A program made the translations under genes and the position numbers. A stretch of 64,000 nucleotides of DNA from contig JBBABB010000001.1 in assembly GCA_041657885.1 (NCBI GenBank), positions 198,926 through 262,925 on the forward strand, in the 5' to 3' direction. This DNA comes from Minisyncoccota bacterium (GTDB taxonomy: Bacteria > Patescibacteriota > Minisyncoccia > Phycocordibacterales > UBA9973). The notes under the pieces were generated by a model. It was not told the DNA's origin. It made no database searches and saw nothing but the letters and a program-made list of their open reading frames with translations. This document shows, one piece after another, positions 4,775 to 56,466 of the stretch; within the stretch, counting starts at the first letter, position 1; each line of letters opens with the position of its first letter.

Positions 4775-6154
4775 TTAAAATCCTCCTATATCTTCCGATG
4801 GCGCACCAAAACTAGACCCTGATTTATCTATAGACATAAAGGTTGTGGATTTCTCATCAAAGTATAAGCTAATTTTACCGACTGGCCCATTACGATGCTT
4901 TTCTATCAATATTTCTACTATATTTGTCTTTTCACTTTCGTTTTTTCCTCTATCTTCTCTATGAAGGAACATCACAATATCGGCATCTTGTTCAATAGAC
5001 CCAGAATCACGCAAGTCAGAAAGGCGAGGGCGACCACCACGAGATTCAACCGCACGATTAAGTTGTGATAACGCAAGAACTGGAACATCAAATTCTTTGG
5101 CAAGGGCTTTTAATGACCGAGAAATTTCAGTAACTTGGTTGACCATATTGTCATAATTTCGGGATGTAGACATCAATTGTAAATAATCCACAATAATCAG
5201 ACCGAGCCCATGTTCTGCTCTTATACGACGACAAACTGAACGCATCCTTATAATAGAATTTCCAGCCATATCATCAACAAAAATAGGAGCCTTGGATAAA
5301 CGGTCAAGAGAATCACGAATTTTAGAAAATTCACCTTCTGTAGATAAATTACCAGTTCTTAAATTCCAAGCGTTTACTTTAGATTGAGCGGCAAGTAATC
5401 TATCTACCAATTGCTGTGTACTCATTTCAAGAGAAAAGATAACAGTAGGAGTTCCATTATTTAACGCTGCTTGGCGAGCAATATCAAGAGCAAGAGTAGT
5501 TTTTCCCATAGAAGGACGTGCCGCTAAAATAACAAGGTCTGACTTTTGAAGACCAGAAAGATATTGGTCCAAGTCATGAAATCCGGTAGGCACCCCACGT
5601 AGTTCTCCTTTATTTTCATGAAGTCTTTCTAACCTCTCCCACGCCTCAGGTAAACTATCTTTAAGAGGAGTGAACGCATGTCCACCTACATTACTGTTTA
5701 TACCCATCATTCTTTTTTCAGCTTGGTCAAGAATATCAAAAACATCTTCTACTTCTTCGCGAAAACCAAGTTCTGATATGTGGTCTCCGGCTTCTATTAT
5801 TTTTCTTAGAATATATTTTTTGTTTACTACGTCAGAATAATATTTTATATTTGTAGAAGCAGGAACAGAATTTGTTAATTCACTCAAATAGCTACTTCCA
5901 CCTATTTGATCAAGTAATCCTTTTTCTTGTAGTTTATGAGACATAGAAAGTATATCTATCGGCTCACCCTTACTTGAAAGGTCCAACATTATTTTATAAA
6001 TTTGTGAGTGTTTTGTTGCGTAAAATGAATCTGGGGTTATTATGTCATTGATTTCATGAATTGCCCCAGGGCGAAGCATGATAGAGCCCAAAATAGCTTT
6101 TTCAGCGTCAAGGCTTTGTGGAGGGATTCTTAAGTTAGATTTTTTGTCTGTCAT
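4775..6154 (-). CDS. dnaB: replicative DNA helicase DnaB
   Basis: DnaB N-terminal domain, Walker A ARPSMGKTTLAL, RecA-like fold motifs. Confidence 0.93.
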   Translation of the reverse strand: MTDKKSNLRIPPQSLDAEKAILGSIMLRPGAIHEINDIITPDSFYATKHSQIYKIMLDLSSKGEPIDILSMSHKLQEKGLLDQIGGSSYLSELTNSVPASTNIKYYSDVVNKKYILRKIIEAGDHISELGFREEVEDVFDILDQAEKRMMGINSNVGGHAFTPLKDSLPEAWERLERLHENKGELRGVPTGFHDLDQYLSGLQKSDLVILAARPSMGKTTLALDIARQAALNNGTPTVIFSLEMSTQQLVDRLLAAQSKVNAWNLRTGNLSTEGEFSKIRDSLDRLSKAPIFVDDMAGNSIIRMRSVCRRIRAEHGLGLIIVDYLQLMSTSRNYDNMVNQVTEISRSLKALAKEFDVPVLALSQLNRAVESRGGRPRLSDLRDSGSIEQDADIVMFLHREDRGKNESEKTNIVEILIEKHRNGPVGKISLYFDEKSTTFMSIDKSGSSFGAPSEDIGGF

Positions 6155-17185: not shown

Positions 17186-17196
17186 CTAAAACAAAA

Positions 17197-17236
17197 ACAC
17201 CTCTCACTAATTTAGTGAGAGGTGTTTTTGTTTTTG
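17197..17236 (+). terminator. rho-independent terminator after the csp gene
   Basis: CACCTCTCACT-aattt-AGTGAGAGGTG followed by a T-run. Confidence 0.6.
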
Positions 17237-20128: not shown

Positions 20129-21181
20129 ATGGAAAATATAAAAAAAATAAGAGTAGCTATTAATGGTTTTGGGAGAATTGGTCGGGCATTTTTGAAAATT
20201 GCTTGGAAGAGAGATGATATTGAAATAGTCGCGGTGAATGACCTCGGCTCAATTGAAAGCTTAGCGTATTTACTCCGACACGACACTGTTTATCGAGATT
20301 GGGAACATCCCGTGCGAATTGAAGATAATTCTAACGGGACAAGTAAGTTTCTTATAATTGATGAAAAGAAAGTTCAGTTCATTTCAGAAAAAGATACAAC
20401 CAAACTTCCTTGGAAAGATTTAGGTATTGACGTTGTGGTTGAGTCAACTGGTCTCTTCACTTCTTATGATAAAGCAAAATTCCACATTGATTGTGGAGCT
20501 AAAAAAGTTGTAATAAGTGCACCATCAAAAGGTGCTGAAAGCACAGTCCACGGCGAAACTATTCTCTTAGGTATTAATGAAGAAAAATTTGGCTCTTGTG
20601 ATATCACTTCAAATGCTTCTTGTACAACTAATGCAGCAAGTCCACTCATCGCGATTCTCCATGAAGCAATTGGAGTAGAGAAGGCAATTTTAAATACAGT
20701 TCATGGATATACTGCAACTCAAGCTCTTGTTGATGGGCCAAGTAAAAAAGACCTTCGCGAAGGTCGTGCAGCCGCTTGCAACATCGTTCCAAGCTCAACT
20801 GGTGCTGCTATTGCAGTAACTGAAGCTTTTCCAGAGCTTACAGGACTATTTGACGGTATATCTATCCGCGTCCCGGTTCCAGCAGGTTCAATTGTGGATA
20901 TTACATTCATTGCAAAAAGAGATACAACAAAAGAAGAAGTAAATAAAATACTAAAAAAAGCATCCAAAGACCCACACTGGGAAAAACTATTTGCAGTTAC
21001 AGAGGATAATCTTGTGTCCTCGGATATATTAGGCGAAAGTCATGCTTGTATCGCAGACCTAGAAATGACTCGCGTTGTCGGAGGTAATCTCGTAAAAGTC
21101 CTCGGCTGGTACGATAACGAAATGGGGTATACATACACGCTTGTTGACCATGTAGTTAAAACAGGATTAACTATTAAATAA
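20129..21181 (+). CDS. gap: glyceraldehyde-3-phosphate dehydrogenase
   Basis: INGFGRIGR NAD-binding motif, SNASCTTN active-site motif. Confidence 0.93.
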   Translation: MENIKKIRVAINGFGRIGRAFLKIAWKRDDIEIVAVNDLGSIESLAYLLRHDTVYRDWEHPVRIEDNSNGTSKFLIIDEKKVQFISEKDTTKLPWKDLGIDVVVESTGLFTSYDKAKFHIDCGAKKVVISAPSKGAESTVHGETILLGINEEKFGSCDITSNASCTTNAASPLIAILHEAIGVEKAILNTVHGYTATQALVDGPSKKDLREGRAAACNIVPSSTGAAIAVTEAFPELTGLFDGISIRVPVPAGSIVDITFIAKRDTTKEEVNKILKKASKDPHWEKLFAVTEDNLVSSDILGESHACIADLEMTRVVGGNLVKVLGWYDNEMGYTYTLVDHVVKTGLTIK

Positions 21182-21995
21182 TTTTTCCTTTAAATACAAA
21201 AGTAGTAGGGCCACGTAATATTATGTGGCCTTGCTCGTTTTGTGATAGATAAAGTTTTCCACCTGGGAATTCTAAAGTTATTTCTCTGTCAATTACATAG
21301 GACGGTCCTATGTAATCTTTTATAAGAATGGCAAAAACTGCACAAGCGCCGGTGCCACAAGCAAGCGTCTCCCCACAGCCACGTTCCCAGACTTTGACTT
21401 TGTAGTAGTCATCTTTTATTTTTTCAACAAATTCCATATTTATTTTATTGGGGAAGTGCGGATCGTTTTCTATTTTAGGCCCAATTGATTTTATATCTAT
21501 TTTATCTAAATTATCAACCATTGTTACTGTATGCGGATTCCCCATAGATATACAATCAAAAGTAAAACCTTCTAGATTGATGGATTCGCTTGGGAAATCA
21601 CAGCTTTCAAAAATTGGTGTTCCCATATTTACGGAGAAGGTGCCATCAGCATTTACTTTGATGTTTTTGATTCCAGCTCGAGTATCTATATTTAATTCTT
21701 TTAAATTAGAATCCTGCTCGCCGGTGAGGAGGGTTGTTTGCTCTAAAAAGAATTTGGCAGTACACCTTGCTCCATTCCCACACATTTCGGCTTCTGTCCC
21801 ATCGGAATTATAATAATTCATAAAACAATCTGCTTTGTTTGATGATTCGAGTAATATTACTCCATCTGCTCCAATACCAAAATGCCTATCACAAATGAAT
21901 TTAATATAATCGGGGGTAAATTTAATTTCACCCTTTAAATTATTTATCATTATAAAGTCATTACCTGCACCGTGATATTTGTGAAATTCAGTCAT
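21174..21995 (-). CDS. dapF: diaminopimelate epimerase
   Basis: GAGNDFI, CGNGARC and ACGTGACA motifs. Confidence 0.9.
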   Translation of the reverse strand: MTEFHKYHGAGNDFIMINNLKGEIKFTPDYIKFICDRHFGIGADGVILLESSNKADCFMNYYNSDGTEAEMCGNGARCTAKFFLEQTTLLTGEQDSNLKELNIDTRAGIKNIKVNADGTFSVNMGTPIFESCDFPSESINLEGFTFDCISMGNPHTVTMVDNLDKIDIKSIGPKIENDPHFPNKINMEFVEKIKDDYYKVKVWERGCGETLACGTGACAVFAILIKDYIGPSYVIDREITLEFPGGKLYLSQNEQGHIILRGPTTFVFKGKII

Positions 21996-22170
21996 GTGTA
22001 TATTATAACTCTTAATGTGTTTTAATAAAAATACAGAATAATAATGTTCTCGAGGGAACCCTTGCGCAGGCCGACTGGGCCGAGCAGAGCAAAATTTCAG
22101 CAGAAATTTATGCGTGGTGAGTCCGAGAATATTATTATGGAGTATTTTTATTATTTGCTATAATATAAAT

Positions 22171-39881: not shown

Positions 39882-41378
<1,497 letters not shown>

Positions 41379-41383
41379 TTAAT

Positions 41384-41474
41384 TTCTCCCCTCCTTACCA
41401 AGGAGGGGAATGAGGGGAGGTTCTTAATTAATTAGGAACCCCTCCCCAGCCCTCCCCTTGGTAAGGGGAGGGGG
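41384..41474. repeat. G+C-rich triple-hairpin element (copy B) between atpD and atpC
   Basis: differs from copy A at only a few positions. Confidence 0.65.
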
Positions 41475-41487
41475 AAATAAAAAACAT

Positions 41488-41931
41488 ATGTCAAAAAAAT
41501 TACAATTAAAAATAGTCACACCTGAAAAACTAATTCTAGAAGAATTAGTTGATTCAGTTACAATCCCTACTACAGAAGGGGAGATTACAATCTTGCCTGA
41601 CCATATTCCTCTTATCGCATCACTTGCATCTGGAGATATTGTCGCTATTACAGATGGAGAGTATGTGCCTATGGCTGTCGTCGACGGATTTGTGGAAACA
41701 AAAAAAGAAAATGATTTAACTGTCGTGACAATTCTCGCTGATTTTGCTGAACATATTGCACTAATCACCGAAGCTGAAATTGAAAAAGCAAAAGCAAAAG
41801 CTGAAGAACTTAAGAAGAAAGCTGAGAATAATGAAATCGTTGACTTTGAGCACTTTGAATCAGAACTTGAACGTTCATTAACTAGAGTCAAAATAGCGGA
41901 TAAATGGAGAACTAAGAAATACAGAAAATAA
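41488..41931 (+). CDS. atpC: ATP synthase F1 subunit epsilon (ORF track starts at 41458, inside the repeat)
   Basis: MSKKLQLKIVTPEKLI beta-sandwich N-domain plus helical C-terminus; a GGAGGG lies 13 nt upstream. Confidence 0.85.
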   Translation: MSKKLQLKIVTPEKLILEELVDSVTIPTTEGEITILPDHIPLIASLASGDIVAITDGEYVPMAVVDGFVETKKENDLTVVTILADFAEHIALITEAEIEKAKAKAEELKKKAENNEIVDFEHFESELERSLTRVKIADKWRTKKYRK

Positions 41932-45087: not shown

Positions 45088-45112
45088 ATAAGTTTTTACT
45101 CTTTGAAATAAA

Positions 45113-45155
45113 AATGATACAAATTCTGCACCTGCAGAATTTGTATCATTTTTAG
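45113..45155 (+). terminator. rho-independent terminator (18-bp perfect stem)
   Basis: AATGATACAAATTCTGCA-cc-TGCAGAATTTGTATCATT followed by TTT. Confidence 0.7.
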
Positions 45156-50103: not shown

Positions 50104-50158
50104 TATATAGTCGTTTCGCGGGATTATTAAAATTATTCGCGCTTTACCCCATACTTAC

Positions 50159-50200
50159 AGATAGAGCCTTAGACTCTATCTAGAGTCTAAGGCTCTATCT
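50159..50200. terminator. 42-nt perfect palindrome between convergent genes (bidirectional terminator or binding site)
   Basis: AGATAGAGCCTTAGACTCTA-tc-TAGAGTCTAAGGCTCTATCT, 20-bp arms. Confidence 0.6.
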
Positions 50201-50202
50201 CT

Positions 50203-50388
50203 TTATCGGTATTTCTCGCGCCAGTTATAATCTTCTTCTTCGTCGTCTTTCTTATCTACAATAGGAGTGCCACATTTTTGGCAAACCTCATCATAAGAAC
50301 GCAGTCCACAACGAGGACAAACTGGCTCTTTTACTTCAGGTTTTTCTCCATCGGAACCATATTTATTATTTATATCTTCTTCGTCCAT
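50203..50388 (-). CDS. small acidic zinc-ribbon protein (ORF track extends to 50463; likely start MDEEDINN)
   Basis: CPRCG...CQKCG four-Cys ribbon. Confidence 0.5.
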   Translation of the reverse strand: MDEEDINNKYGSDGEKPEVKEPVCPRCGLRSYDEVCQKCGTPIVDKKDDEEEDYNWREKYR

Positions 50389-50451
50389 TTTTATATTATA
50401 ATTGATTTTTAAATTTTTGGAAATAGTATATAATATAAATATTATTAATAA

Positions 50452-50476
50452 AAAGCTACACAAATTATATTCTGAA
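50452..50476 (+). promoter_or_regulatory. conserved 25-nt motif AAAGCTACACAAATTATATTCTGAA (copy B)
   Basis: see copy A at 34196. Confidence 0.4.
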
Positions 50477-50580
50477 AAAATAAAATTTGTTTCGCATTAA
50501 AAACTATATGGCAAAAGGAGATGGGCATAGAAAAGAGGTTAAGAAACCTAAAAAAGTAAAGAAGTAGTTTCTATAAAAAA

Positions 50581-50754
50581 GCTACATTGAAATAGTCTTA
50601 TCAAAGGGGCTTTGGAGTGAGGAAGCGAATACTTGGAGCTTCCGCAAGACCTTTTGAGATATCTTTGTAATCAAAGTATCCAAAAGGTGTACTGTTCCTG
50701 TAAGGAACGACGGTATACCCTTTGAGAAGAGCTATTTCAGTGTAGCTTTTTGCA
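50581..50754 (+). ncRNA. candidate structured RNA of unknown class upstream of eno
   Basis: 16-bp closing helix GCUACAUUGAAAUAGU/GCUAUUUCAGUGUAGC, inner helix CAAAGGG/CCCUUUG, three hairpins (GGAAGC/GCUUCC; CCUUUUG..CAAAAGG; GUUCCU/AGGAAC), then UUUUU. Confidence 0.45.
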
Positions 50755-50807
50755 TAAATTATATATATGTTGGAAAATCATTATTTTTATTATATAATAT
50801 AAGGAGT

Positions 50808-52040
50808 ATGGATAAGGATAAAAAAATCACAAACATAACAGCCGAGCAAATTCTTGATTCACGGGGGAACCCTACACTTAAGGTGTCTGTGTATGTAGGT
50901 GATATAGTCGGAAGTTTTGAAGTTCCATCAGGCGCAAGTACTGGTAAATATGAAGTATGCGAACTACGCGACGGAAAAGATAGTAAAAGTGGAGTTTCAA
51001 ATGCTATAGAAAAAATAGAATCTGTCATAAAAAAAGCGTTAGTAGGTATAGATATAGACCAGCAAAAACAAATAGATGAGATTATGATAAAACTCGATGG
51101 CACACCCCAGAAAACAAATCTTGGAGGTAATAGTATAATAGGAGTAAGTATTGCCGCTGCTAAAACTGCTGCCAAAGTGAGAAATATGGAAGTTTACGAA
51201 TACCTTAAAACTCTAGCTCTCATAACTCCATCTCGTAAAGAACCATTTTTATGTTTTAATCTTATAAACGGAGGCAAACACGCAGCCACAAAATTAGCTT
51301 TTCAAGAATTTCATATTGTTCCACAAGTAGAGACATCAAAAGAAAGTGTAGAAATTAGCCGAAACATCCAAAATAAATTAGACGAAATTCTAGAAAAAGA
51401 GTTTGGAGTAATTACCAAGGGAGATGAAGGTGGAGTAGCACTAGATGTAGAAGATGTATTTACACCACTTACATTAATGAAAAAAGTTGTTCTAAAATTA
51501 GGTTATAGCGACAAAATTAAATTTGCTCTTGATGTCGCTGCCAGTTCTTTTTATGACTATGATAGAGATGTGTATAAATTTATGGACCGAGATTGGACTA
51601 AAGATGAGATGATAAATCTTTATGGAAAAATTTGTGCTGATTTCCCAATGATTTTTATAGAAGATCCATTTAATGAAGAAGATTATGAGGGCTTCGCTAA
51701 ACTTCAACAAAAAATTGGAGATGTGAAATTGATAGGAGACGATCTTACTGTCACCAATAAAGATAAACTAAAAAAAGCTATAGATAAAAAAAGTATAAGG
51801 GGTATTATTATTAAACCAAATCAAATTGGCACACTAAGTGAGACGCTTGATACCATGAAACTTGCTCGTGATAATAATATAGATTGTATTGTGAGTCACA
51901 GAAGCGGGGAAACGATGGATGATTTTATTGGTGACCTAACGTGTGCTTTTGGATGCTTTGGTATTAAAGCAGGTGCACTAGGACCTCGAGAGCGAAATGT
52001 AAAATATGAAAGAATTATTAACATAACAAAGCTACATTAA
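50808..52040 (+). CDS. eno: enolase
   Basis: N-terminal EQILDSRGNPT, C-terminal SHRSGET motif. Confidence 0.88.
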   Translation: MDKDKKITNITAEQILDSRGNPTLKVSVYVGDIVGSFEVPSGASTGKYEVCELRDGKDSKSGVSNAIEKIESVIKKALVGIDIDQQKQIDEIMIKLDGTPQKTNLGGNSIIGVSIAAAKTAAKVRNMEVYEYLKTLALITPSRKEPFLCFNLINGGKHAATKLAFQEFHIVPQVETSKESVEISRNIQNKLDEILEKEFGVITKGDEGGVALDVEDVFTPLTLMKKVVLKLGYSDKIKFALDVAASSFYDYDRDVYKFMDRDWTKDEMINLYGKICADFPMIFIEDPFNEEDYEGFAKLQQKIGDVKLIGDDLTVTNKDKLKKAIDKKSIRGIIIKPNQIGTLSETLDTMKLARDNNIDCIVSHRSGETMDDFIGDLTCAFGCFGIKAGALGPRERNVKYERIINITKLH

Positions 52041-52049
52041 AATAAATAT

Positions 52050-52847
52050 ATGGAATCCATAACAAAAATAATCGCAACCATAGGACCAGTTAGTAATAAT
52101 AGAGAAACTATTACCGAAATGATAAAACATCATATGGATATAGCTCGCTTGAATTTCTCGTGGGGTACTCACCAGTGGCATGGCGATATTATAAAAAATA
52201 TTCGTGAAATTGCTAAAGAGAATAATTTATCTATTCCTATTATTCAAGATTTATCTGGACCAAGAGTTCAAAAGGGTGATGGACATCATTTCGGTGGAGA
52301 GAATGGAGAAGAAATAATTACAGAAAAAGATGTGGATGACTTATCTTTTGGAATAGAACAGGAAGTAGAATATGTGGCCTTGTCTTTTGTCGGCACAGCC
52401 CATGATGTTATTAAATTAAAAGAAATTATAAAAGAAAAAGGAGGTAATCAAAAAGTTATATCCAAAATAGAACGTAAGTTGGCATATGAAAATTTAGATT
52501 CCATTATAAAAGAATCAGATGGCATAATGGTTGCGAGAGGGGACTTAGGTAATGAATTTCCACTTGAAGAAATTCCTTTCATTCAACATCGTATTATACA
52601 AGAATGCAAAAAAGCAGGAAAAATGGTTATTGTTGCCACTCAGATGCTTCTATCTATGGTAGATAGTCCAACTCCAACTCGCGCTGAAGTTTCAGATGTT
52701 GCCTATGCAATACTTGATGGAGCTGATGGCATTATGCTTTCAGAAGAATCAGCAAAAGGGAAATACCCAGTGGAAGCAGTAGCAATGATGGAGAAAATTG
52801 CTTTGGTCGCAGAAAAGCACAAAAATAAAGATATTAGTATTATTTAA
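52050..52847 (+). CDS. pyk: pyruvate kinase, minimal form (A-domain barrel only; lid and C-terminal domains reduced or absent)
   Basis: [14 protein letters not shown] and [12 protein letters not shown] motifs; 265 aa. Confidence 0.75.
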
Positions 52848-52855
52848 TTTAATAA

Positions 52856-52880
52856 AAAGCTTCACAAATTATATTATGAA
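52856..52880 (+). promoter_or_regulatory. conserved 25-nt motif AAAGCTTCACAAATTATATTATGAA (copy C), overlapping the dehydrogenase ATG
   Basis: see copy A at 34196. Confidence 0.4.
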
Positions 52881-53847
52881 TAAACAAATTTATATTACAA
52901 GAAAAATTCCAGAAGCAGGACTTAAGTTGTTAAGAGAAAAAGGAATAACTTTTGATATGGGAATATCAAAAGTTCCTCCGACTAAAAAAGAAATTATAAA
53001 AGCATTGAAGAAAAAACCTTATAACGGTGTTATTTCTTTTTTAACAGACCATATAGACGCGGAAGTTTTCGATGCTTGTTCAACTGCCAAAGTTTTTGCC
53101 AACTTTTCTGTTGGCTTTGATAATTTTGATTTAGATGAAGCTAAAAAAAGAAATATTTGTATATCAAATACTCCAGGAACTTCAGCCACGGCCGTAGCTG
53201 AGCATACAGTGGCTCTTATGCTTGCTCTCACAACTCGTTTGGTAGAAGGCGATAAATTTATGTGTAAAGGTAAATTCAAAGGTTGGGATCCAAATTTATT
53301 TATAGGGACAGACATGAAAGGAAAAACAATTGGACTAATCGGTGCTGGCCAAATAGGAACCGAGGTTGCTAAAATATTACATTATGGTTTCGGTTCAAAA
53401 ATTATATATAGTGACATATCTCCAAACCCAACACTAGAACAAATAATAGGGCCAGCAAGAAAAGAAACTGCCGAGATTCTCCGCGTGGCTGATATTGTAT
53501 CTCTTCATGTTCCATTACTTCCTACAACCCACCATCTCATAAACAAAGAAACACTTGCCACAATGAAAAAAACTGCATTTTTAATTAACACATCAAGGGG
53601 TCCAGTTGTTGATGAAAAAGCATTAGTATATGCACTCGAAAATAATATTATTCGTGGGGCGGCATTAGATGTCTTTGAATTCGAACCCAAATTATCTAAG
53701 GGGCTTATAAAATTACCAGATGTAATTATTACTCCTCATATCGCTTCAGCTCGTCAAACAGCTCGCGATATGATGGCCGAAATTGCCGCGAAAAACATCA
53801 TTTCAGCTCTTGAAACAGGAATAGTTATCAACAGTGTTATAAAATAG
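52876..53847 (+). CDS. D-isomer-specific 2-hydroxyacid dehydrogenase (glycerate/phosphoglycerate dehydrogenase-like)
   Basis: NAD-binding GLIGAGQIG and catalytic His/Glu/Arg region; ORF track starts at 52798. Confidence 0.85.
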   Translation: MNKQIYITRKIPEAGLKLLREKGITFDMGISKVPPTKKEIIKALKKKPYNGVISFLTDHIDAEVFDACSTAKVFANFSVGFDNFDLDEAKKRNICISNTPGTSATAVAEHTVALMLALTTRLVEGDKFMCKGKFKGWDPNLFIGTDMKGKTIGLIGAGQIGTEVAKILHYGFGSKIIYSDISPNPTLEQIIGPARKETAEILRVADIVSLHVPLLPTTHHLINKETLATMKKTAFLINTSRGPVVDEKALVYALENNIIRGAALDVFEFEPKLSKGLIKLPDVIITPHIASARQTARDMMAEIAAKNIISALETGIVINSVIK

Positions 53848-56378: not shown

Positions 56379-56466
56379 ACGACATAACATGTTGCAAAAT
56401 ATGGCTAATCTTTTACGACATTATAGTTTGTCCCAAACTTAATGTCGTAAAAGATATAATGTGCGA
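56379..56466. repeat. two adjacent hairpins sharing the 11-mer TTTTACGACAT
   Basis: AGCCATATTTT...AAAATATGGCT (11 bp) and ATCTTTTACGACATTA...TAATGTCGTAAAAGAT (16 bp) between convergent genes. Confidence 0.5.

What the first reader, a model, noticed from the sequence alone, without database searches (positions are those of the whole stretch)
50581..50754. Candidate ~170-nt structured RNA upstream of eno
A 16-bp closing helix (GCUACAUUGAAAUAGU paired with GCUAUUUCAGUGUAGC, two G-U pairs) encloses a second helix (CAAAGGG/CCCUUUG) and a three-hairpin core: GGAAGC-N11-GCUUCC; CCUUUUG-AGAUAUCUUUG-uaau-CAAAGUAUC-CAAAAGG; GUUCCU-gua-AGGAAC. It ends in UUUUU. It has no protein-coding potential and fits no RNA class recognised here by eye (not tRNA, SRP RNA, 6S, RNase P, tmRNA or fluoride riboswitch consensus). 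It lies between a promoter-like conserved motif with a 19-aa Lys-rich mini-ORF (50508-50567) and the enolase gene.
Basis: seen in the sequence. Interest (0 to 1): 0.65.

Follow-up and report, generated by a model that had tools for sequence, protein, structure and literature searches.

The report
Nested hairpin repeat, not eno leader
The ~175-nt folded element before enolase is real, but it is one copy of a previously undescribed multi-copy hairpin repeat of Parcubacteria (CPR bacteria) sitting in the terminator slot of a tiny upstream gene, with a second small repeat nested in its tip, rather than an enolase-specific regulatory RNA.

Summary
Window 50575-50752 (+) folds as described (-79.7 kcal/mol, z = -10.4) and matches no Rfam 15 family.

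The eno-linked interpretation fails. A conserved promoter (TTGGAA-17-TATAAT, 50770-50798) lies between the element and eno. At this exact spot eight close relatives carry only a plain A-tract/hairpin/U-tract terminator after a conserved 19-aa mini-ORF.

The arms and junction (UGAAAUAGUCUUAUCAAAGGGGCUUUGGAG ... UACCCUUUGAGAAGAGCUAUUUCA) belong to a ~120-nt dispersed family. A 24-base core pattern hit 62 loci in 41 assemblies, all Patescibacteria/Parcubacteria, with up to 5 loci per assembly. A second copy lies in the window at 22030-22147.

Typical members have a long hairpin tipped by a conserved three-way junction. Covariation is strong (92.7% paired against 64.7% shuffled; 43 of 45 pairs with compensatory changes). 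Copies occur in both orientations, mostly just after stop codons. Copies 88-97% identical sit in unrelated flanks, and occupancy differs among close relatives.

These match a second recurrent module (Hb-UGUACUG-Hc), seen beside tRNA genes in three of four other loci.

Most likely it is a nested MITE-like repeat serving as the mini-ORF terminator.

The parts
50575..50580 (+). A6 tract immediately 5' of the closing helix. It can pair with the U5 tract, and read on the other strand it is a U-tract.
   Evidence: The same A-tract precedes the plain terminators of relatives.
50581..50601 (+). 5' arm of the long closing helix (P1): GCUACA, then the family-conserved UUGAAAUAGUCUUAU.
   Evidence: Invariant in window, L001, L002 and L003 from U50587 onward. 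Matched by CM R1 and R2.
50602..50620 (+). P2 5' strand CAAAGGG plus the conserved junction GCUUUGGAG (the type-A signature GGGGCUUUGGAG).
50621..50643 (+). Hairpin Ha (GGAAGC-N11-GCUUCC), the first hairpin of the window-specific tip. A similar GAGGAAGYG hairpin occurs in L120.
50650..50687 (+). Hairpin Hb (CCUUUUG...CAAAAGG) of the nested 'D module'.
50688..50708 (+). Conserved linker UGUACU plus hairpin Hc (GUUCCU-GUA-AGGAAC). This is the signature of the D module, shared with L120, L092, L095 and L054.
   Evidence: Hc covaries: 96.7% of cells paired, 4 of 6 pairs with changes on both sides.
50709..50724 (+). GACGGUAUA joiner (CGACGG, starting at C50708, resembles the family's H1 loop) followed by the P2 3' strand CCCUUUG.
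50725..50746 (+). 3' arm of P1: AGAAGAGCUAUUUCAG (family-conserved, with bulged G50731), then UGUAGC.
50747..50751 (+). U5 tract directly after the closing helix, giving a terminator-like 3' end.
50508..50567 (+). Conserved mini-ORF MAKGDGHRKEVKKPKKVKK. Its stop codon lies 7 nt before the A-tract, so the element occupies its terminator position.
50770..50798 (+). eno promoter-like site TTGGAA-17-TATAAT, conserved in relatives with and without the element. It lies between the element and eno (ATG 50808).
22030..22147 (+). Second copy of the same repeat family in the window (type C; full hairpin 22023-22152), between dapF (-) and rpiB (+).
   Evidence: CM R1 25.5 bits, R2 52.2 bits. Fold -50.2 kcal/mol, z = -7.1. 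Neighbouring genes.

Best explanation
The element is a composite of two nested, small, non-coding, hairpin-forming repeats of Parcubacteria.

**Outer layer.** Arms 50587-50601 and 50725-50740, P2, GGGGCUUUGGAG and UACCC form a copy of a ~120-nt dispersed repeat. A normal copy is a 20-30-bp hairpin capped by a conserved three-way junction. That junction carries H1 with a GACG loop flanked by tandem G.A pairs, H2 with an AGC-containing loop, and a GUAC joiner.

**Inner layer.** In the window lineage that tip was replaced by, or invaded by, a second recurrent module (Ha, Hb, UGUACUG, Hc).

**Position.** The whole structure sits 7-13 nt after the stop codon of a conserved 19-aa mini-gene. It lies between an A6 and a U5 tract, exactly where relatives carry an ordinary intrinsic terminator, and upstream of the conserved eno promoter.

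**Inferred mechanism.** The family spreads or duplicates like a MITE, ERIC or SPRITE-type repeat. It settles preferentially at palindromic sites just after genes (terminator loops, loops of other repeats). Its fold is maintained on one particular strand. At this locus the closing helix plus U-tract serves as the terminator and 3'-end hairpin of the mini-ORF transcript, and possibly as a bidirectional insulator. eno is transcribed from its own promoter with almost no leader.

**Shown versus inferred.** Shown: the structure, family membership, copy number, taxonomic range, covariation, positional replacement of a terminator, the promoter position and the composite nature. Inferred: mobility and its mechanism, termination activity, and any role of the conserved junction.
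For: **Structure.** z = -10.4.

**Family membership and range.**
- A CM built without the window sequence finds the window copy at 74.5 bits, E 1e-15.
- The pattern GGGGNTTTNGAGCNCGACGGNGCGANAAC hits 62 loci in 41 assemblies, all Patescibacteria/Parcubacteria, with up to 5 loci per assembly.
- The CM finds 72 matches in those loci, a few of them reverse-strand re-hits of the same elements, with extra copies within loci.
- There are no matches in viral contigs.

**Covariation.** 92.7% of cells are paired against 64.7% in shuffles. 43 of 45 pairs show changes on both sides. The covariation score is 0.608, against at most 0.118 when partners are slid.

**Window.** It holds exactly two members.

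**Mobility-like behaviour.**
- Copies 88-97% identical have unrelated flanks, within one MAG and between MAGs.
- One subfamily shows whole-length conservation, including an 18-bp terminal inverted repeat, with 4 copies in one MAG.
- Occupancy differs among close relatives, and the element lies in opposite orientations at the same site in L002 and L003.
- Other elements are nested in members' loops or stems.

**Terminator slot.** L002, L003, L004, L007-L010, L148 and L149 have an A-tract/hairpin/U-tract terminator after the mini-ORF, where the window and L001 have the element. A and U tracts on both flanks occur in 17 of 70 copies, against about 3% expected.

**eno promoter.** It is conserved downstream of the element.

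**Composite nature.** L001, at the orthologous site, has the canonical tip. The window tip matches L120, L092, L095 and L054, and Hc covaries.
Against: - No target-site duplication and no mobilising gene were found, so 'mobile' rests on comparative patterns only.
- The family conserves its non-palindromic core more than its arms, the reverse of classical MITEs.
- Orthologous copies downstream of rny keep H1 and the arms through compensatory changes. This suggests a host-level or structural constraint rather than pure junk.
- More than half of the copies lack any U-tract, so termination cannot be the family's general role.
- The strand that folds best is antisense to the abutting gene in 29 of 43 one-sided cases, and lies on the C-rich strand in 37 loci against 16. 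This is unexplained.
- A 175-nt branched structure is an unusual intrinsic terminator, and its activity is untested.
- The second window copy (22030-22147) lies between divergent genes, not after a gene end.
Confidence: 0.55

Rival explanations
1. The family is a bona fide functional RNA: a trans-acting sRNA or a cis-acting protein-binding or processing signal. Its conserved three-way junction is the active part. The copies are kept because the host uses them, and the window copy is a diverged or neofunctionalised member.
For: - The core is nearly invariant across several Parcubacteria classes, while stems covary.
- There is a tandem G.A motif and invariant loop nucleotides (GAC, AGC).
- Wobble asymmetry favours one strand: G.U 32 against A.C 6 in the inner helices, and MFE is lower on that strand in 65 of 67 copies.
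- Orthologous copies after rny are retained in several genomes with compensatory changes.
- The family is present in extremely reduced genomes.
Against: - No conserved promoter lies upstream of the copies.
- Many copies sit 4-30 nt from a divergent start codon, or are antisense inside apparent operons.
- Close relatives gain and lose copies at the same site.
- Near-identical copies occur in unrelated flanks.
- The window copy has lost both family hairpins (H1 and H2) yet persists identically in four assemblies.
- Compensatory changes in inverted repeats can also arise through DNA template switching.
Confidence: 0.25
2. It is a cis-regulatory leader or riboswitch controlling eno (and pyk).
For: - It lies upstream of eno on the same strand and is highly structured with a 3' U-tract.
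- The second window copy is upstream of rpiB, another sugar-phosphate enzyme.
- Two D-module copies precede a nucleotidyltransferase-like gene (by its N-terminal sequence; not profile-searched) and a glycosyltransferase-like gene.
Against: - The conserved eno promoter lies downstream of the element, 10 nt before the ATG.
- Eight close relatives with the same eno context lack the element.
- Most family members have a convergent downstream gene (39 of 61).
- Neighbouring genes are unrelated housekeeping genes.
- The closing helix, more than 20 bp long, leaves no obvious alternative pairing.
Confidence: 0.03
3. The conserved junction is a small self-cleaving ribozyme. Like hammerhead or twister, such ribozymes are also multi-copy, dispersed, and have covarying stems.
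For: - The architecture is a three-way junction with tandem G.A beside one hairpin and a GUA triplet before the closing stem, superficially hammerhead-like.
- The distribution is dispersed, multi-copy and in both orientations.
Against: - No hit to any ribozyme model at E<=10.
- The hammerhead core CUGANGA (G5, A6) is absent.
- The positions that would be core nucleotides instead form covarying Watson-Crick pairs: column 39-123 is U-A in 34 copies and C-G in 21.
- The window copy lacks this tip altogether.
Confidence: 0.05
4. It is a chance palindrome or an ordinary long terminator with no family relationship.
For: This genome uses long, perfect A-tract/hairpin/U-tract terminators, for example at 17188-17235 and 45108-45155.
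Against: CM scores of 57-74 bits, with an invariant 30-nt arm-and-junction sequence shared with L001-L003. No shuffle folds as well.
Confidence: 0.01

Closest known systems
ERIC/IRU elements of Enterobacteriaceae (~127-bp imperfect palindromes, classed as MITEs)
   Same: - About 120 nt, non-coding and intergenic.
- Often at 3' ends of genes and co-transcribed.
- Found in either orientation.
- Fold into a long RNA hairpin.
- Presence differs between close relatives.
- Can affect mRNA stability (review PMC3184786, read).
   Different: - ERIC has conserved arms (TIRs) and TA duplications. Here no target-site duplication was found.
- Here the most conserved part is a non-palindromic three-way junction at the tip.
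- The host is CPR bacteria with genomes of about 1 Mb or less (the size is background knowledge; the window's contig is 362 kb).
[quoted passage not shown]
   Same: They are small dispersed repeats whose predicted RNA structure resembles a terminator and that sit after genes (PMC3184786). The window copy occupies a terminator slot and has A and U tracts.
   Different: There is no sequence relationship. Only about one third of the Parcubacteria copies carry a U-tract. Correia and RUP have defined TIRs and cognate transposase families, and none was identified here.
REP/BIME palindromes as insertion targets (IS1397, ISKpn1, IS621 and ISPpu9 insert into REP loops)
   Same: Insertions go into the loop of an existing palindrome, giving nested structures (PMC1525189 and PMC3184786, listed). 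Here the comparable cases are a D module in the tip of the window copy, a 130-nt hairpin element in the H2 loop of L082, and flanks outside the shared unit that are themselves inverted repeats.
   Different: Those inserts are full insertion sequences that encode transposases. Here both host and guest are elements of 100-170 nt with no coding capacity. REPs are 20-40 nt.
Dispersed self-cleaving ribozymes (hammerhead, twister)
   Same: They are multi-copy, small, and have conserved junction nucleotides with freely covarying stems. Tandem G.A pairs sit next to a hairpin.
   Different: The catalytic core consensus is absent and cmscan is negative.
Riboswitch aptamers
   Same: They have a conserved multi-helix junction closed by a P1 helix followed by a U-tract, with several copies per genome.
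   Different: This element is not positioned in 5' UTRs, occurs in both orientations, mostly follows stop codons, and has no gene-family association.

Membership tests
Any Rfam 15 family (tRNA, tmRNA, SRP, 6S, RNase P, riboswitches, ribozymes, leaders) | Covariance-model score at or above the family gathering threshold | tested here: not met
   - Whole window at gathering thresholds: only 3 tRNAs, elsewhere.
- 50380-50820 at E<=10: best hit 23.5 bits against a 72.6-bit threshold.
- Canonical members L002 and L113: only far-below-threshold microRNA-precursor hairpin hits.
- D-module loci L120, L092 and L054: nothing but the adjacent tRNAs.
- ARAGORN finds nothing at the site.
Riboswitch / cis-regulatory leader of eno | Lies within the 5' UTR, between the promoter and the start codon of the regulated gene | tested here: not met
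   The conserved TTGGAA-17-TATAAT at 50770-50798 lies downstream of the element and 10 nt before the ATG. The same promoter is present in relatives that lack the element. This is promoter prediction only; no transcription start data exist.
Riboswitch / cis-regulatory leader of eno | Conserved association with the same gene or pathway across genomes | tested here: not met
   Eight relatives with the same mini-ORF-eno arrangement lack it. Family members flank rny, efp, recA, RNR, rpmE and others. 39 of 61 have a convergent downstream gene.
Small dispersed intergenic repeats (MITE-like: ERIC, Correia, RUP, SPRITE) | Short (about 100-400 bp), non-coding, multi-copy and dispersed in intergenic regions | tested here: met
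   The element is about 120 nt. The pattern hits 62 loci in 41 assemblies, up to 5 loci per assembly, with several copies within single 8-kb loci. The window holds 2 copies in 64 kb. There are 6 copies in 535 kb of unselected eno-flanking DNA.
Small dispersed intergenic repeats (MITE-like) | Terminal inverted repeats | tested here: met
   The whole element is an imperfect palindrome. Subfamily B1 ends in the 18-bp TIR CTTTGAATTACGAAACTC. Type A has arms AAATAGTCTTATCARAGGG / CCCTYTGRGAAGAGCTATTT.
Small dispersed intergenic repeats (MITE-like) | Target-site duplication flanking the element | tested here: inconclusive
   No direct repeat was seen at the ends of 7 aligned B1 copies. Flanks are often inverted repeats instead.
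Small dispersed intergenic repeats (MITE-like) | Insertion polymorphism and near-identical copies at non-homologous sites | tested here: met
   Site A and site B differ in occupancy among L001-L010, L148, L149 and the window. Copies 88-97% identical have flanks at background identity of 0.5-0.65.
Small dispersed intergenic repeats (MITE-like) | A cognate autonomous element or transposase with matching ends | not testable with these tools
   Neighbouring ORFs of 66 copies cluster only into housekeeping families. Whole genomes could not be scanned.
Intrinsic (Rho-independent) terminator | Stable stem directly followed by a U-tract, just downstream of a gene end | tested here: met
   The stem base GUGUAGC is followed by U5 at 50747-50751. 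The element begins 7-13 nt after the mini-ORF stop codon. It replaces the canonical terminator seen in eight relatives. Family-wide, only about one third of copies have a U-tract.
Intrinsic (Rho-independent) terminator | Actual transcript 3' ends at the U-tract | not testable with these tools
   No transcriptome data were available.
Hammerhead ribozyme | Core C3-U4-G5-A6-N7-G8-A9 ... G12-A13-A14 around a three-way junction | tested here: not met
   The family has N-U-U-U-Y-G-A ... G-A-R, so G5 and A6 are absent. Y38-R55 and the adjacent U-A pairs covary as a helix. cmscan is negative.
REP/BIME with RAYT | Palindromes of 20-40 nt, in high copy number, flanking a Y1 (RAYT) transposase gene | tested here: not met
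   The elements are 100-170 nt with a branched tip. No transposase gene is among the neighbours.

The most novel reading that the evidence does not exclude
The conserved three-way junction may be an active nucleic-acid module. It comprises tandem G.A, invariant GAC and AGC loops, and a GUAC joiner, and its fold is maintained on one strand whatever the direction of neighbouring genes. It could be catalytic, or the specific handle of an unknown enzyme, and drive 'loop-homing' of these 100-170-nt elements into hairpin loops (terminators, T-loops of tRNA-gene copies, loops of other repeats). That would be a new class of structure-targeting mobile element, or a new abundant functional RNA, specific to CPR bacteria.
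Probability: 0.13. Interest if true: 0.85.

Novelty: new variant of a known kind. Interest (0 to 1): 0.5.

Why it matters
- **Annotation.** The most eye-catching 'orphan structured RNA' before a central glycolytic gene is not an eno regulator. Similar hairpins in Parcubacteria MAGs should not be called riboswitches or sRNAs on structure alone.
- **Biology.** Parcubacteria have some of the smallest bacterial genomes. Yet they carry roughly one copy per 25-30 kb of a ~120-nt repeat whose non-palindromic three-way junction is almost invariant across several candidate classes and is supported by extensive covariation. Such genomes are expected to purge useless repeats, so either these elements are efficient parasites with an unknown, protein-poor mobility mechanism, or the host uses them.
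- **Possible new principle.** The nesting pattern (repeat within repeat within terminator; modules beside duplicated tRNA 3' ends) hints at insertion guided by hairpin loops. If confirmed, that would be a new targeting principle.
- **Resource.** The family gives a ready-made alignment for a new Rfam-type model.

Tried and rejected
- **Rfam.** I scanned the whole window at gathering thresholds. I also scanned five local regions at permissive E-values: the window element, canonical members L002 and L113, and the D-module loci L120, L092 and L054. Nothing emerged.
- **SRP, 6S, tmRNA, 5S, RNase P.** I compared the consensus by eye. There is a superficial tmRNA 5'-end resemblance (GGGGCU...CGACGG...GCGAAAC). 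I rejected these because the element is multi-copy, has no T-arm, and ARAGORN is negative.
- **Hammerhead-like reading of the junction.** Rejected: G5 and A6 are absent, and the positions covary as a helix.
- **'The arms are just host terminator stems invaded by a conserved core.'** Only partly tenable. Subfamilies conserve the whole hairpin including its outermost arms, although flanks beyond the shared unit are often inverted repeats too.
- **General terminator function for the family.** Rejected: 37 of 70 copies have no A or U tract.
- **Own promoter upstream of copies.** No consistent motif was seen in 80-nt upstream flanks.
- **Phage origin.** No match in viral contigs.
- **Mobilising gene among neighbours.** None found.
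- **Group I intron link.** I checked the paper on Patescibacteria tRNA introns. It is not relevant, because those introns are much larger and sit in anticodon loops.
- **A third covariance model, for the D module.** Abandoned because MAFFT misaligned the Hb 5' strand. A descriptor search was used instead.
- **Literature.** Searches for a described Parcubacteria/Patescibacteria repeat or ncRNA of this kind found nothing.
Full report
**1.
- closing helix 50581-50595 with 50732-50746;
- CAAAGGG (50602-50608) with CCCUUUG (50718-50724);
- hairpins at 50621-50643, 50650-50687 and 50694-50708;
- A6 (50575-50580) before the element and U5 (50747-50751) after it.

RNAfold recovers this architecture at -79.7 kcal/mol, against -39.7 +/- 3.8 for dinucleotide shuffles (z = -10.4, 0 of 200 as good). 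The reverse strand reaches -70.6 kcal/mol. The sequence is identical in three other assemblies that encode the same enolase, so it is not an assembly artefact.

**2. It is no curated RNA.**
cmscan of the whole window at gathering thresholds finds only three tRNAs, elsewhere. A permissive scan of 50380-50820 gives nothing near threshold. ARAGORN finds nothing at the site.

The organism is a Candidatus Paceibacterota (Parcubacteria, CPR) MAG with about 33% GC.

**3. Homologues exist, but not as an eno leader.**
I fetched 80 enolase loci from metagenomes. blastn and nhmmer found the arms of the element in three close relatives:
- L001: the same place, between the mini-ORF and eno.
- L002: beyond the 3' end of the Zn-ribbon gene, antisense to it.
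- L003: that same site in the opposite orientation.

The invariant sequence is UGAAAUAGUCUUAUCAAAGGGGCUUU(G/U)GAG ... GUACCCUUUGAGAAGAG(CUAUUU). The outermost stem covaries.

These relatives carry two hairpins at the tip where the window has three. They are GC(N)C-GACG-G(N)GC and an A/U stem with an AGCA or ACCA loop. The window has about 55 extra nucleotides.

**4. It is a large family.**
A covariance model built from L001, L002 and L003 only (R1) scores the window element at 74.5 bits (E 1e-15). It also finds:
- copies in distant enolase loci (L028 at 68 bits; L022; L010);
- a second copy inside the window at 22030-22147. That copy folds at -50.2 kcal/mol, z = -7.1, and lies between dapF and rpiB.

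An exact scan of 185,579 species-representative genomes with the 24-specified-base core GGGGNTTTNGAGCNCGACGGNGCGANAAC returned 62 loci from 41 assemblies. By my own estimate, fewer than 0.01 chance matches are expected in 596 Gb. All hits are labelled Nomura-, Paceibacterota, Yonath-, Yanofsky-, Adler- or Vogelbacteria, Minisyncoccia, Patescibacteria group, Saccharibacteria, or unnamed 'bacterium'. Up to five loci come from one assembly.

The CM finds 72 matches in those loci, a few of them reverse-strand re-hits of the same elements. Second and third copies occur within single 8-kb loci, sometimes adjacent and inverted. Viral contigs give nothing.

With a broader model (R2) and filters off, the window contains exactly two members. 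All other hits are plain long hairpins. In 535 kb of unselected eno-flanking DNA there are six copies, four of them in the roughly 100 kb from close relatives.

**5. The structure is strongly supported.**
On 67 aligned copies:
- 92.7% of cells pair, against 64.7% after shuffling.
- 43 of 45 pairs show changes on both sides.
- The covariation score is 0.608, against at most 0.118 when partners are slid by 1-3 columns.
- The single variable pair inside H1 takes G-C (43), U-A (13), C-G (6) and A-U (1).
- The pair closing the tandem G.A motif alternates between U-A (34) and C-G (21).

Two caveats apply. The alignment was fitted to the model. And in inverted repeats, DNA-level template switching can also restore complementarity.

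The folding strand can be assigned:
- MFE is lower on the modelled strand in 65 of 67 copies.
- G.U outnumbers A.C 32 to 6 in the inner helices.

Three core subtypes (A, B, C) share the H1 loop GAC, GA after H1, AG before H2, AGC in the H2 loop, and (C)GUR before the closing strand. Canonical members also have no Rfam match.

**6. Context.**
Copies are intergenic and usually begin or end 0-30 nt from a stop codon. Both orientations occur:
- 28 lie between co-directional genes in antisense;
- 15 lie between co-directional genes in sense;
- 11 lie between convergent genes;
- 7 lie between divergent genes.

Neighbours are housekeeping genes (RNase Y, EF-P, RecA, ribonucleotide reductase, L31, enolase) with no transposase, integrase or RT among them.

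A and U tracts flank both sides in 17 of 70 copies (about 3% expected), but 37 of 70 have neither. A U-tract in the sense of the abutting gene occurs in about one third.

One finding is unexplained. The folding strand is antisense to the abutting gene in 29 cases against 14. It lies on the C-rich strand of the surrounding 8 kb in 37 loci against 16 (p = 0.005, though the copies are not all independent).

**7. The element is not eno's leader; it sits in a terminator slot.**
In L002, L003, L004, L007, L008, L009, L010, L148 and L149 the conserved mini-ORF (MAKGDGHRKE.KKPKK...) is followed by a canonical A-tract/GC-hairpin/U-tract terminator. Next comes the conserved promoter TTGGAAAAT-N-TATATAATA, 7-10 nt or more before the eno ATG.

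The window and L001 have the same flanks, but the repeat stands in place of the simple hairpin: aaaaaa-GCUACA[...]UGUAGC-uuuuu. The promoter scan finds TTGGAA-17-TATAAT at 50770-50798. eno is therefore most likely transcribed with almost no leader, from a promoter downstream of the element.

Likewise, the site after the Zn-ribbon gene carries a bidirectional terminator in L004, L006 and L017, and a 20-bp palindrome in the window. In L002 and L003 it carries the repeat, inside a GC stem, in opposite orientations.

**8. Signs of mobility or duplication.**
- Pairs of copies 88-97% identical over about 120 nt have flanks at background identity. This occurs within one MAG (L110 and L099 at 96%; L084 and L089 at 91%) and between MAGs (L138 and L086 at 97%; L114 and L100 at 90%).
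- Subfamily B1 conserves the whole hairpin out to an 18-bp terminal inverted repeat, with four copies in assembly JAGXAA01. No target-site duplication is visible.
- The sequence just outside the shared unit is often itself an inverted repeat (L086 against L138; L093). This fits either insertion into pre-existing palindromes or outward growth of the arms.
- Members host other insertions: a 130-nt different hairpin element in the H2 loop of L082, and a 30-nt insert in L132.
- L148 keeps the window's 3' flank GTAGCTTTTTGCATAAATTATATAT after a plain terminator, without the 5' partner GCTACA.

**9. The window copy is a composite.**
Its arms, P2, GGGGCUUUGGAG and UACCC are type A. H1 and H2 are missing.

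The replacing sequence (50617-50709) has its only significant matches in L120 and L092. A motif and descriptor search finds the same module in five places in 1.03 Mb: the window, L120, L092, L095 and L054. The module is an Hb stem CCUUUUN...NAAAAGG, a linker (U)GUAC(U/A)G, and a 5-6-bp hairpin Hc with loop GUA.

Hc covaries (96.7% paired; 4 of 6 pairs changed on both sides).

In L120, L095 and L092 the module lies directly after tRNA genes. In L120 and L095 it is followed by a direct repeat of that tRNA's 3' end (22 nt and 13 nt), and the repeat forms the module's closing helices. In L054 it is flanked by terminators. It too has no Rfam match.

The join in the window (GGAG | ... | CGACGG-UAUACCC) falls at the position of the H1 loop of the canonical copy in L001.

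**10. Interpretation.**
The best-supported reading (confidence about 0.55) is that the feature is a Russian-doll of small MITE-like hairpin repeats. It occupies the terminator position of the mini-ORF transcription unit. There its closing helix plus U5 (and A6 on the other strand) most plausibly terminates or stabilises that transcript and insulates the eno promoter.

- The family resembles ERIC, SPRITE, RUP and Correia repeats in size, location, orientation freedom and insertion polymorphism (PMC3184786).
- It resembles REP loops as insertion targets (PMC1525189).
- It differs in conserving a non-palindromic three-way junction rather than its termini, in lacking a visible TSD or transposase, and in its host clade.

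The main rival (about 0.25) is that the junction is a host-used RNA module. Support comes from the near-invariant core, the strand-specific wobble pattern, and orthologous copies after rny that are retained with compensatory changes. Against it: there is no promoter, copies turn over, and this window copy has lost the junction altogether.

An eno riboswitch (about 0.03), a ribozyme (about 0.05) and chance (about 0.01) are disfavoured, as set out above.

**11. Novelty.**
Five full-text searches found no description of such an element in Parcubacteria/Patescibacteria, and Rfam 15 has no model for it. I rate it a new variant of a known kind (small dispersed structured repeats).

Interest is moderate (0.5). 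The eno-specific idea fails. But an abundant, covariation-supported three-way-junction repeat in ultra-reduced CPR genomes, with loop-nesting behaviour and an unexplained strand bias, deserves follow-up.

Noticed in passing
window 50508-50567 (also L001:1621-1677, L002:2847-2903, L003:362-418, L004, L007-L010, L148, L149): The 19-aa Lys-rich mini-ORF MAKGDGHRKE(V/A/I)KKPKK... is conserved at the amino-acid level with synonymous nucleotide changes. In relatives it has its own terminator. It is probably a real, unannotated small protein gene.
   Followed up: partly
window 22023-22152 (+): Second copy (type C) of the same repeat family, between dapF (21174-21995, -) and rpiB (ATG 22171, +). It is not next to any gene end, so it is not a terminator there.
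   Followed up: yes
window 50450-50461 vs 50740-50751: AAAAAGCTACAC upstream of the mini-ORF is the exact reverse complement of GTGTAGCTTTTT at the 3' end of the element. The upstream sequence is conserved as AAAAAGCTTCAC in L002 and L149. This allows a long-range helix that would enclose the whole mini-gene. L148 keeps the 3' copy without the element.
   Followed up: partly
window 50157-50203: A 20-bp perfect palindrome (AGATAGAGCCTTAGACTCTA-GA-TAGAGTCTAAGGCTCTATCT) lies right after the Zn-ribbon gene, at the site where L002 and L003 carry the repeat.
   Followed up: partly
window ~50112-50150; L095:~5531-5600; L100:~669-738; L001 site A: Another repeat family (GGATTATTAAAATTATTCGCGCTTTACCC..., a long hairpin in L095 and L100) occurs next to copies of the 3WJ repeat. 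It is present as a partial copy in the window.
   Followed up: no
window 29920-30060: GC-rich (0.55-0.59, in a 33% GC genome) hairpin structures lie directly after rpmE (L31, 29696-29917). They include a ~95-nt long hairpin CCUCCCCUGCUAAGGGGAG...CUCCCCCUUAGCAGGGGGAG. This may be another structured repeat or RNA. Weaker GC-rich CM hits also occur at 39887-39971 and 41373-41488.
   Followed up: no
window 17188-17235, 45108-45155, 1628-1669, 56405-56457: This genome's ordinary terminators are unusually long (about 20 bp), near-perfect hairpins flanked by A- and U-tracts, so they look bidirectional.
   Followed up: no
window 52050-52847 and 52798-53847: Pyruvate kinase downstream of eno appears as two overlapping ORFs in different frames. 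This could be a frameshift, a programmed event, or two genuine genes. The 265-aa product is also called in other assemblies.
   Followed up: no
L003:487-613: A ~125-nt insertion with TIR CCCGTTAGAGAT/ATCTCTAACGGG and a duplicated ATGGA sits exactly at the eno start codon. It is a different MITE-like element with an apparent target-site duplication.
   Followed up: no
L120:6512-6675; L095:763-935; L092:6585-6700(-): The D module lies immediately after tRNA genes (Asp, Ser, Val). In L120 and L095 it is followed by a direct repeat of the tRNA 3' end (22 nt and 13 nt). Together with tRNA-like 5' sequences, that repeat forms acceptor- and T-stem-like closing helices. This may be a tRNA-targeting mini-element or a tRNA-like small RNA.
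   Followed up: partly
window ~56000: Cumulative GC skew peaks at about 56 kb. Gene orientation switches there from mostly + to mostly -, which is consistent with a replication terminus-like switch point.
   Followed up: no
L082:3480-3640(-): A 130-nt long-hairpin element of yet another family (arms CCCTATAGAATA...TATTCCATAGGG) is inserted in the H2 loop of a 3WJ-repeat copy. It is another example of loop nesting.
   Followed up: partly
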